DNA from: a virus
Taxonomy: Duplodnaviria; Heunggongvirae; Uroviricota; Caudoviricetes
Virus record (IMG/VR): IMGVR_UViG_2537561945_000004
Strand: one strand, 5' to 3'
Length of the DNA: 42,538 bases
Below are positions 6,939 through 7,651 of the stretch, piece by piece (position 1 is the stretch's first letter; the number at the start of each line of letters is the position of its first letter). Made by a program: the position numbers and the translations under genes. The notes beneath the pieces are model-generated. The model made no database searches, was not told the origin of the DNA, and worked only from the letters and a program-made list of their open reading frames with translations.

Positions 6939-7651
6939 CATGGCTAATGCTCAAACTGCCATCTTCAAATTTGAATCTGTTAACCCTATCCGTTCCATCA
7001 TTATCGATGGCCAACCATGGTTTGTAGCCCAAGACGTTTGTAGTGCGCTGCGTATCCAAAACGTCACCCAAGCACTTGAAAAACTGGATGATGATGAAAG
7101 GTCTATGTTCAACATAGGGCATGAACATCGTGCAATTTTTGACAGCCGAGTAAAAGAGATCAACATCATCTCCGAGTCAGGCCTCTACACACTGATCCTC
7201 CGCTGCCGCGACGCAGTGACACTAGGCACTATCCCCCTACCGCTTTCGTAAATGGGTTACAGGTGAGGTACTTCCTCAGATCCGTCGAACAGGAAGCTAC
7301 ATTAAAAACTCGTTCCCGCAGGAAGAACGCATAAAGATGGTTGCCGACCAGGTAGCCAACGCCACGGCGTCAGCAGTGATGCAGGCAATGAAGATAGAGA
7401 ACAAAACCTACAGTGCCCCACTGAAGCCCGGCTACCGCAGTCTGATTCATTCGCCGTCTGGTGTTCTCGGCCTGACGGAGAACTCATTGCTGATGAATCT
7501 GCTGAATCAGTTGCAGGACGACGGGCATGATGTATCGGGCGCGGCGGCGGAGCTGACCACCATGTTCTGCTACATTGTCGGTGTGAGCAAATGCCTGCGT
7601 GATATCCAGACCCACGCGGAGTATATCAACGACAAAGCAGGGTTCTTCTGA
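6939..7651 (+). pseudogene. Bro-N/KilA-N type antirepressor, interrupted by a +1 frameshift at a C5 run (about 7233-7237)
   Basis: GGAG RBS; N-terminal Bro-N pattern (IFKFESVNPIRSIIIDGQPWFVAQDVCSAL...ISESGLYTLILRCRDA); the conserved continuation FRKWVTGEVLPQIRRTGSY is in the next frame and joins ORF 7337-7651; one fewer C in the run restores a single ORF of about 237 aa. Could equally be a homopolymer sequencing error. Confidence 0.5.

What the first reader, a model, noticed from the sequence alone, without database searches (positions are those of the whole stretch)
6939..7651. Bro-N antirepressor interrupted at a C5 homopolymer
The Bro-N domain reads in frame 1 up to ..LILRCRDAVTLGTIPLPLS* (stop 7249-7251). 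The conserved continuation FRKWVTGEVLPQIRRTGSY and the rest of the protein (to 7651) are in the next frame. Removing one C from the run CCCCC (about 7233-7237) yields one continuous ORF (..GTIPYRFRKWVTGEVLP..). This is either an inactivating mutation (a cryptic, antirepressor-defective prophage), a homopolymer sequencing error, or slippage-dependent expression.
Basis: seen in the sequence. Interest (0 to 1): 0.45.

Follow-up and report, generated by a model that had tools for sequence, protein, structure and literature searches.

The report
Frameshifted prophage antirepressor gene (ordinary pseudogene)
One extra C has broken one of the two antirepressor genes of an epsilon15/phiV10-like prophage in this E. 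coli clone; it is a real but ordinary mutation that RefSeq already annotates as a frameshifted pseudogene, not a programmed frameshift or a sequencing error.

Summary
An ATG at 6940 opens a Bro-N reading frame that stops at 7249-7251. The rest of a conserved 236-aa protein continues in the +1 frame to 7651. The break is at CCCCC, 7233-7237.

It is a recent single-base insertion. E. coli 20KM2222 carries the same gene, identical at every other base, with CCCC and an intact 236-aa product. That exact protein is on 146 public contigs. Six related phage or prophage genes read ATC/ATT CCC TAC. Only 4 of 266 complete E. coli genomes holding this segment have the extra C, and all four are annotated "frameshifted".

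It is not a sequencing error. The truncated product is on at least 24 independently assembled contigs, some from slightly diverged strains.

The prophage is not antirepressor-less. The broken gene fuses a Bro-N domain to a domain homologous to phage SPC32H Ant (PDB 5D50) and sits behind isrK and C4 antisense RNAs. An intact 85-aa SPC32H-type Ant with a LexA box (5534-5791) and an intact Rep remain.

CCC-CUA is a slippery +1 site, so trace full-length product is possible. Nothing indicates programmed recoding. Interest is low.

The parts
6940..7651 (+). Bro-N / Ant-like fusion antirepressor gene, frameshifted pseudogene (712 nt; the intact allele is 711 nt and encodes 236 aa)
   Evidence: It is 100% identical to loci annotated 'frameshifted' in BE311, F41, K99S and EC24.26.
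6940..7251 (+). Frame-1 ORF: 98 native residues of the Bro-N domain, then the aberrant tail LPLS and a stop (103 aa)
   Evidence: covers only Bro-N model 2-80 of 96. The exact product P0001 is on 30 contigs.
7233..7237 (+). CCCCC run holding the inserted C; orthologs have CCCC or TCCC (ATC/ATT CCC TAC)
   Evidence: The 20KM2222 gene differs from the window's only here.
7238..7651 (+). +1-frame continuation: the end of the Bro-N domain (YRFRKWVTGEVLPQIRR), a linker, and a C-terminal domain homologous to SPC32H Ant (residues 155-231 of the repaired protein)
   Evidence: 5d50_E, E=2e-13; 43% identity to the small Ant.
7337..7651 (+). Internal ATG ORF (104 aa) that gene callers report separately; it holds the whole Ant-like domain but has only a weak, distant AGGA as a ribosome-binding site
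   Evidence: P0016, 40 contigs. Whether it is translated is not known.
6707..6783 (+). isrK-type sRNA with its own terminator. A promoter-like site lies at 6672-6700.
   Evidence: (67.7 bits, gathering 50).
6808..6891 (+). C4 antisense RNA. The loop of its second hairpin (CCACUUAG) is complementary to the Shine-Dalgarno region of the Bro-N gene.
   Evidence: 63.6 bits, gathering 45; loop and target covary in three sequence groups.
6921..6930 (+). C4 target box CTAAGTGG overlapping the Shine-Dalgarno sequence GGAG of the Bro-N gene
5534..5791 (+). Intact small antirepressor (85 aa), ortholog of SPC32H Ant and paralog of the C-terminal domain of the broken gene
   Evidence: (the alignment shows the 5d50_E sequence), (phrog_450, E=1.5e-47; epsilon15p19 homolog).
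5497..5512 (+). LexA-box-like palindrome CTGTATAAATATACAG just upstream of the small ant gene
36122..36706 (+). Prophage repressor, homolog of SPC32H Rep; the presumed target of both antirepressors
   Evidence: (5d50_A, E=4.9e-41).

Best explanation
The window is an epsilon15/phiV10/SPC32H-like (Uetakevirus-type) prophage of E. coli, integrated between guaA and yfgI.

The gene at 6940-7651 normally encodes a 236-aa antirepressor. It has an N-terminal Bro-N domain and a C-terminal domain homologous to the small Ant of phage SPC32H, which binds the Rep repressor and breaks up its tetramer. The gene lies behind an isrK sRNA and a C4 antisense RNA. The C4 loop is complementary to the gene's ribosome-binding site.

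In this clone a replication-type slip added one C to a CCCC run (ATC CCC TAC became ATC CCC CTA C). Translation then reads LPLS and stops at 7249-7251. The product lacks the last roughly 16 positions of the Bro-N domain and the whole Rep-binding domain, so this antirepressor is inactivated.

The event is recent and confined to one lineage. The prophage's other induction route, an intact LexA-boxed 85-aa Ant acting on an intact Rep, is untouched.

Shown: the insertion, its derived and rare state, its reality across independent assemblies, the domain homologies and the RNA elements. Inferred: loss of function, binding of Rep by the C-terminal domain, and C4/IsrK control of this particular gene.
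For: Anatomy.

The insertion is derived:
- The 20KM2222 gene differs from the window gene only by the missing C and encodes intact WP_060581784.1.
- That exact protein (P0032) is on 146 contigs. Sister intact alleles are on 812 and 314 contigs. The truncated product is on 30.
- F719, HEMP4, TL-2011b, ZX5, Tyrion and phiV10 all read ATC/ATT CCC TAC.
- Four of 266 complete genomes have the 80-nt form. Every other listed row spans 79 nt: 56 of the 60 best rows and 59 of 60 rows spread down the ranking.

The allele is real: 4 complete genomes plus at least 24 contigs, including Logan assemblies of SRR11454229 and SRR387492 and GCA_022546275.1. Two of these differ from the window by 3 SNPs in 4.3 kb.

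The Bro-N domain is truncated: model 2-96 matched in the repaired protein against 2-80 in the ORF.

The C-terminal domain matches SPC32H Ant (5d50_E, E=2e-13). Rep is present (5d50_A, E=5e-41). Ant's disassembly of the Rep tetramer is described in PMC9638917.

isrK and C4 are above the Rfam gathering scores. The loop and the Shine-Dalgarno box covary in three sequence groups.

Homologous genes are broken independently elsewhere: a deletion (alignment shows 17 gap columns) in phiV10, an IS3-family insertion, and a +C at another site in strain A33. This fits a dispensable, frequently lost gene.
Against: No expression data exist.

CCC-C followed by the rare codon CUA, with a stop four codons downstream, is a good spontaneous +1 slippery context. 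Some full-length protein could therefore still be made.

The 104-aa internal ORF holds the complete Ant-like domain and could in principle be translated on its own.

The gene shows no further decay in any C5 carrier examined, so relaxed selection after the frameshift is not demonstrated. It is only compatible with a recent event.
Confidence: 0.88

Rival explanations
1. Homopolymer sequencing or assembly error: the true sequence is C4 and the gene is intact.
For: The change is one base in a homopolymer, and an allele identical except for C4 exists.
Against: The C5 allele is in 4 separately deposited complete genomes. Its 103-aa product is in 62 index blocks, with at least 24 contigs read, from NCBI, ENA and Logan assemblies of different runs. 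Carriers L018 and L020 differ from the window at other nearby positions, so they are distinct isolates sharing an inherited allele. A run of 5 is short for systematic error.
Confidence: 0.03
2. Slippage-dependent expression. The C5 allele is functional because ribosomes shift +1 at CCC-CUA (P-site tRNA-Pro re-pairs on CCC, A-site rare Leu codon), or RNA polymerase slips, giving useful and possibly regulated amounts of the 236-aa antirepressor.
For: The site is a textbook spontaneous +1 context. CCC-C allows perfect re-pairing. The next 0-frame codon, CUA, is one I know to be rare in E. coli. The 0-frame stop is only four codons downstream, and the shifted product would be identical to the wild-type protein. 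CC[C/U]-[C/U] sequences give up to about 1% +1 frameshifting in E. coli in the most favourable position (PMC4519876).
Against: The C5 state is not conserved. It is present in 4 of 266 genomes, all with a 100% identical gene, while every diverged ortholog is in one frame. No Shine-Dalgarno-like stimulator lies upstream of the site (only AGG, 7 nt away). The 1% figure applies to codon 2, and ordinary internal sites are far lower, with typical non-programmed +1 frameshifting below 0.003%. From my own knowledge, a run of five C is too short for efficient transcriptional slippage.
Confidence: 0.04
3. Functional gene fission. The two halves act as separate proteins: a short Bro-N fragment, plus a stand-alone 104-aa Ant-like protein from ATG 7337, analogous to the naturally stand-alone 85-aa Ant.
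For: The Ant fold works as a stand-alone protein of about 86 aa in SPC32H, and an 85-aa paralog sits 1.1 kb upstream. The 7337 ORF holds the whole domain. Gene callers predict it.
Against: There is no start codon in that frame before 7337, which lies 86 nt past the upstream stop, so translational coupling is unlikely. The only Shine-Dalgarno-like element is AGGA, 13 nt upstream. The N-terminal fragment lacks the most conserved Bro-N segment. The arrangement is not conserved in any diverged relative. Other 104-aa 'genes' of this cluster are remnants of IS insertion.
Confidence: 0.05

Closest known systems
BRO-family (Bro-N domain) phage antirepressors, e.g. WP_060581784.1 / WP_023352204.1 of E. 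coli prophages, TL-2011b and ZX5 'anti-repressor', phiV10 p23 'anti-immunity protein' (PHROG 130)
   Same: Same gene. It is 100% identical to WP_060581784.1 apart from the inserted C, has the same position between the tailspike and virion-core genes, and has the same upstream RNAs.
   Different: In the window it is split by a +1 frameshift at codons 98-99. The function of this family in Uetakevirus-type phages is annotated, not tested.
SPC32H Rep-Ant antirepression system (PDB 5D50/5D4Z; Kim & Ryu 2013, cited in PMC7380047; summarised in PMC9638917)
   Same: The prophage has a Rep homolog (E=5e-41) and an 85-aa Ant ortholog with a LexA box. The C-terminal domain of the broken gene belongs to the same Ant family (E=2e-13; 43% identity to the small Ant).
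   Different: The broken gene carries the Ant-like domain fused to a Bro-N domain and sits under isrK/C4 control rather than behind a LexA box. Whether it binds the same Rep is inferred.
P1/P7 immI (c4 antisense RNA - icd - ant) and the Salmonella Gifsy-1 isrK-orf45-anrP module (PMC4825925)
   Same: An isrK-type sRNA and a C4-type RNA lie directly upstream of an antirepressor gene. The C4 loop is complementary to the ribosome-binding region, and isrK carries a copy of the same box. IsrK activates anrP translation in Gifsy-1.
   Different: There is no orf45-like ORF with a stop overlapping the ant start (ATGA). Here the gene has its own GGAG and the C4 target overlaps it. Regulation was not tested here. 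P1 details are from my own knowledge.
Programmed +1 ribosomal frameshifting (prfB type) and spontaneous CCC-C +1 frameshifting by tRNA-Pro
   Same: A slippery P-site codon with perfect +1 re-pairing (CCC-C), followed by a slowly decoded codon and a nearby 0-frame stop.
   Different: The shift site is not conserved, there is no Shine-Dalgarno-like stimulator, and the ancestral and common state is a single frame. It resembles an error-prone site created by mutation, not a recoding signal.

Membership tests
Bro-N domain protein (Pfam PF02498) | Significant full-length match to the Bro-N HMM above the gathering score | tested here: met
   Repaired protein: 71.3 bits (cut-off 25.6), model 2-96/96. 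The 103-aa ORF alone: 61.3 bits, but only model 2-80.
SPC32H-type Ant antirepressor domain (PDB 5D50 chain E; PHROG 450) | Sequence homology across the whole ~80-residue Ant fold | tested here: met
   residues 155-231 match chain residues 3-79, E=2e-13; phrog_450, E=6e-36.
SPC32H-type Ant antirepressor domain (PDB 5D50 chain E; PHROG 450) | Binds the cognate Rep and releases it from its operator | not testable with these tools
   Only the presence of a Rep homolog in the same prophage is shown.
C4/IsrK-controlled antirepressor module (P1 immI / Gifsy-1 isrK-anrP) | C4-family and isrK-family RNAs immediately upstream on the same strand | tested here: met
   (both above the Rfam gathering scores; 6707-6783 and 6808-6891).
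C4/IsrK-controlled antirepressor module (P1 immI / Gifsy-1 isrK-anrP) | Antisense loop complementary to the translation-initiation region of the downstream gene, maintained by covariation | tested here: met
   The pairs are CCACTTAG/CTAAGTGG (window, F719, HEMP4), CCTTTTAG/CTAAAAGG (TL-2011b, ZX5, phiV10) and CCTTTGTAG/CTACAAAGG (Tyrion).
C4/IsrK-controlled antirepressor module (P1 immI / Gifsy-1 isrK-anrP) | Upstream leader ORF (icd / orf45) translationally coupled to ant | tested here: not met
   No ORF ends at or overlaps the ATG at 6940.
Programmed +1 ribosomal frameshift gene | The two-frame arrangement and shift site are conserved among diverged orthologs | tested here: not met
   All diverged orthologs are in one frame, and C5 is only in 4 of 266 genomes with an identical gene.
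Programmed +1 ribosomal frameshift gene | Slippery P-site codon allowing re-pairing in +1, next to a slow A-site codon | tested here: met
   ATC CCC CUA, where CUA is used once in the gene against 11 CUG. The slipperiness of CCC-C is described in PMC4519876.
Programmed +1 ribosomal frameshift gene | Stimulatory element (e.g. a Shine-Dalgarno-like sequence about 3 nt upstream, as in prfB) | tested here: not met
   The sequence upstream is GACACUAGGCACUAU, with only AGG 7 nt away.
Frameshifted pseudogene | A single indel relative to an otherwise identical intact allele; the derived, minority state | tested here: met
   PGAP flags it 'frameshifted'.

The most novel reading that the evidence does not exclude
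The C5 allele is not dead but attenuated. Spontaneous +1 slippage of tRNA-Pro at CCC-CUA yields a small amount of wild-type antirepressor, and that amount depends on translation stress (availability of the tRNA reading CUA, m1G37/TrmD or EF-P status). This would turn the C4/IsrK-controlled induction route into a low-gain, stress-coupled one.

A related reading is that the repeated independent knock-outs of this gene are selected 'grounding' of the accessory induction route while the SOS route is kept. Those knock-outs are this insertion, a +C at another site in strain A33, an IS3-family insertion, and the phiV10 deletion.
Probability: 0.04. Interest if true: 0.45.

Novelty: already known. Interest (0 to 1): 0.1.

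Why it matters
It matters little beyond annotation. It shows that this clone's prophage has lost its second (Bro-N, C4/IsrK-controlled) antirepressor while keeping the SOS-linked Ant-Rep switch. That is relevant only to predicting how the prophage can be induced. The case is a useful negative control for scans that look for recoding. The mutation happened to create a near-ideal +1 slippery context, yet the comparative data clearly show a recent lineage-specific indel.

Tried and rejected
- **Seed trick.** I tried a 51-nt megablast query designed so that only C5 alleles could seed. It also returned 13 C4-length hits. These turned out to be alleles with ATC>ACC (ACT ACC CCC TAC), an in-frame C5 run in intact genes. 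The trick was not clean, but it still found no further frameshifted C5 allele.
- **Post-frameshift decay.** I suspected that the P>L (TPG>TLG) and L>F (NSLPQ>NSFPQ) replacements were decay after the frameshift. This is rejected: both are present in the intact parent allele P0032.
- **Same hotspot elsewhere.** I checked whether other stand-alone 104-aa C-terminal ORFs (P0022) reflect the same hotspot. They do not; they come from an IS3-family insertion.
- **NCBIfam.** It has no model for the protein.
- **Kim & Ryu 2013.** PMC3807360 is not held, so details of SPC32H ant regulation by LexA rest on my own knowledge plus the LexA-box match.
- **Not attempted.** I did not use the search for homologous proteins or the representative search, because the question did not need them.

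Full report
**1. The observation**

The sequence is as described.
- An ATG at 6940, preceded by GGAG at 6927-6930, opens an ORF that reads ...LILRCRDAVTLGTIPLPLS and stops at TAA 7249-7251.
- CCCCC occupies exactly 7233-7237. It is the only homopolymer of that kind in the gene.
- The +1 frame is open from 7226 to 7651 and reads YRFRKWVTGEVLPQIRRTGSY...
- Removing one C gives one 236-aa ORF.
- The repaired protein matches Pfam Bro-N over the entire model (residues 17-112, model 2-96/96, E=1e-19). The 103-aa ORF reaches only model position 80. The break therefore lies inside the domain, just before its most conserved segment.
Everything else is exact.

**2. Where the window comes from**

- Apart from one IS2, the window is 100% identical over 41.2 kb to E. 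coli BE311.
- It spans yfgH/yfgI, lysis genes, a tailspike, this locus, virion genes, a replication and immunity region, and an integrase next to guaA.
- The nearest phages are HEMP4, TL-2011b, ZX5, phiV10 and Tyrion; phiV10, ZX5 and Tyrion are classified as Uetakevirus.

**3. The extra C is derived, rare and real**

*Derived.*
- E. coli 20KM2222 has the same gene with a single difference, the missing C. Its annotated product is an intact 236-aa protein, WP_060581784.1.
- That exact protein is on 146 public contigs. Two sister intact alleles are on 812 and 314 contigs.
- F719, HEMP4, TL-2011b, ZX5, Tyrion and phiV10 (97% down to about 80% DNA identity) all read ATC/ATT CCC TAC in one frame.

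*Rare.*
- Of 266 complete E. coli genomes containing this 80-nt segment, four have the 80-nt form: BE311, F41, K99S and EC24.26.
- Every other listed row spans 79 nt. That is 56 of the 60 best rows and 59 of 60 rows spread down the ranking.
- All four C5 genomes have a gene 100% identical to the window's. PGAP marks each as a 'frameshifted' pseudogene.

*Real.*
- The truncated 103-aa product is indexed in 62 blocks. Twenty-four contigs were read, including Logan assemblies of two unrelated SRA runs and a GenBank draft.
- Two of these contigs differ from the window at three other positions within 4.3 kb.
- A sequencing artefact would not be inherited along with linked SNP differences. This is a real allele of a small clonal lineage.
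- The two amino-acid peculiarities of the window allele (TLG, NSFPQ) are already present in the intact parent allele. They are not post-frameshift decay.

**4. What the gene is**

- PHROG profiles call the repaired protein 'anti-repressor Ant' (phrog_130, E=1.5e-55).
- Its C-terminal domain (residues 155-231) is homologous to the whole 86-aa antirepressor of Salmonella phage SPC32H, solved in complex with its repressor (5d50_E, E=2e-13).
- The prophage encodes a Rep homolog at 36122-36706 (5d50_A, E=4.9e-41).
- The true ortholog of SPC32H Ant is a different, intact gene 1.1 kb upstream, at 5534-5791. It is 85 aa, 43% identical to the C-terminal domain of the broken gene, and corresponds to epsilon15p19.
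- That small gene sits behind a near-consensus LexA box, CTGTATAAATATACAG, at 5497-5512.
- The prophage therefore has two antirepressors sharing one Rep-binding fold. Only the larger Bro-N fusion is broken, so 'antirepressor-defective prophage' overstates the case.

**5. Regulation of the broken gene**

- Rfam places an isrK sRNA at 6707-6783 and a C4 antisense RNA at 6808-6891, both above their gathering scores.
- A promoter-like site at 6672-6700 is positioned to start isrK.
- The loop of the second C4 hairpin is complementary to a box overlapping the gene's Shine-Dalgarno sequence.
- Loop and box covary across three sequence groups: CCACTTAG/CTAAGTGG, CCTTTTAG/CTAAAAGG and CCTTTGTAG/CTACAAAGG. 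isrK carries a copy of the same box.
- This matches the logic of the Gifsy-1 isrK-orf45-anrP module, in which IsrK activates antirepressor translation (PMC4825925). From my own knowledge it also matches P1 c4-icd-ant.
- One difference is that no leader ORF is coupled to the start codon here.
- That this gene is actually regulated in this way is inferred, not shown.

**6. Mechanism and consequence**

- The most likely event is a +1 replication slip in CCCC.
- The product keeps 98 native residues, adds LPLS and terminates. It loses the YRFRKWVTGEVLPQIRR end of the Bro-N domain and the whole Ant-like domain. I infer a null allele for this route of induction.
- Homologous genes are broken independently elsewhere:
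  - a deletion (alignment shows 17 gap columns) in the Ant-like domain of the type phage phiV10, annotated there as two CDS;
  - an IS3-family insertion in another lineage;
  - a +C at a different site in strain A33.
- The gene is evidently dispensable and often lost.

**7. Rival explanations**

*Programmed or useful slippage.*
- The mutation created ATC CCC CUA. That is a P-site CCC that can re-pair perfectly in +1, followed by a rare Leu codon and a stop four codons later. The shifted product would be wild-type protein.
- PMC4519876 reports up to about 1% +1 frameshifting at CCC-C in the most favourable position, against below 0.003% for typical non-programmed events.
- Trace read-through is therefore plausible.
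- However, the arrangement is not conserved in any diverged ortholog, there is no stimulator upstream, and the one-frame state is ancestral. It is not a recoding signal.

*Functional fission.*
- A 104-aa Ant-like protein from ATG 7337 is conceivable.
- It lacks a good ribosome-binding site and any coupling to the upstream ORF.

*Sequencing error.*
- This is excluded by the evidence in section 3.

**8. Verdict**

This is a real, recent, lineage-specific single-base insertion that inactivates the accessory Bro-N/Ant-like antirepressor of a Uetakevirus-type prophage. RefSeq relatives already annotate it as a frameshifted pseudogene. It is ordinary, and interest is low.

Noticed in passing
window 6707-6783, 6808-6891, 6921-6930: isrK and C4 antisense RNAs lie directly upstream of the Bro-N gene. 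The C4 hairpin loop, a box inside isrK, and the gene's Shine-Dalgarno region covary three ways across three diverged phage groups. This suggests IsrK acts as a decoy or anti-antisense for C4.
   Followed up: partly
window 5497-5512 and 5534-5791: An intact 85-aa ortholog of SPC32H Ant (PDB 5D50 chain E) sits behind a near-consensus LexA box. It is a paralog of the C-terminal domain of the broken gene, so the prophage has two antirepressors with one Rep-binding fold.
   Followed up: partly
window 5443, 6563, 6656, 26585, 30121, 33659, 33721, 36052, 36764, 36826 (exact matches; 6 more with one mismatch): The palindrome TTACC-N5-GGTAA occurs 16 times against 0.76 expected. Copies lie before both antirepressor genes, in the rep-cro intergenic region and in other intergenic spots. 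These are candidate operators of the SPC32H-like Rep.
   Followed up: no
window 8234-9564 (target duplication GGAAG at 8229-8233 and 9565-9569): An IS2 copy (1331 bp; NCBIfam IS2 TnpA/TnpB) interrupts the adjacent DUF4760 gene. It is absent from BE311, F41, K99S, EC24.26 and the Logan and NCBI contigs that share the frameshift, so it is a later event in this strain.
   Followed up: yes
L007 (phiV10) 2790-3469; L025 (strain A33) 155-842; L012-L017: The homologous antirepressor gene is disrupted independently elsewhere. There is a deletion (alignment shows 17 gap columns) in the type phage phiV10 (annotated as p23 + p22), a +C at another site in E. coli A33 (PGAP 'frameshifted'), and an IS3-family insertion in a lineage seen on 14 contigs.
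   Followed up: partly
L024, L026 (positions about 420-430): Some intact alleles read ACT ACC CCC TAC (Ile>Thr). This gives an in-frame run of five C at the same place, so a C5 run as such is not diagnostic of the frameshift.
   Followed up: yes
window 5814-6542 (-): A 242-aa ORF (phrog_6762) lies between the two antirepressor genes. It has C-terminal repeats resembling endonuclease VII / Lar-like zinc ribbons. It is present in the window lineage and at the same position in TL-2011b, but absent in F719. It looks like a moron.
   Followed up: no
window 26921-26994 (+): A phage-borne tRNA (Rfam 73 bits), annotated tRNA-Arg in BE311, lies in the intergenic region before the portal gene and is flanked by two of the TTACC-N5-GGTAA palindromes.
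   Followed up: no
L008 (TL-2011b) 3712-3945 (-): A second copy of the last roughly 234 nt of the antirepressor gene (94% identity) forms the 3' end of a different gene on the opposite strand. In E. coli genomes the same C-terminal module is joined to ORF6N or AntA/AntB N-termini. The Ant-like domain is therefore a shuffled module.
   Followed up: no
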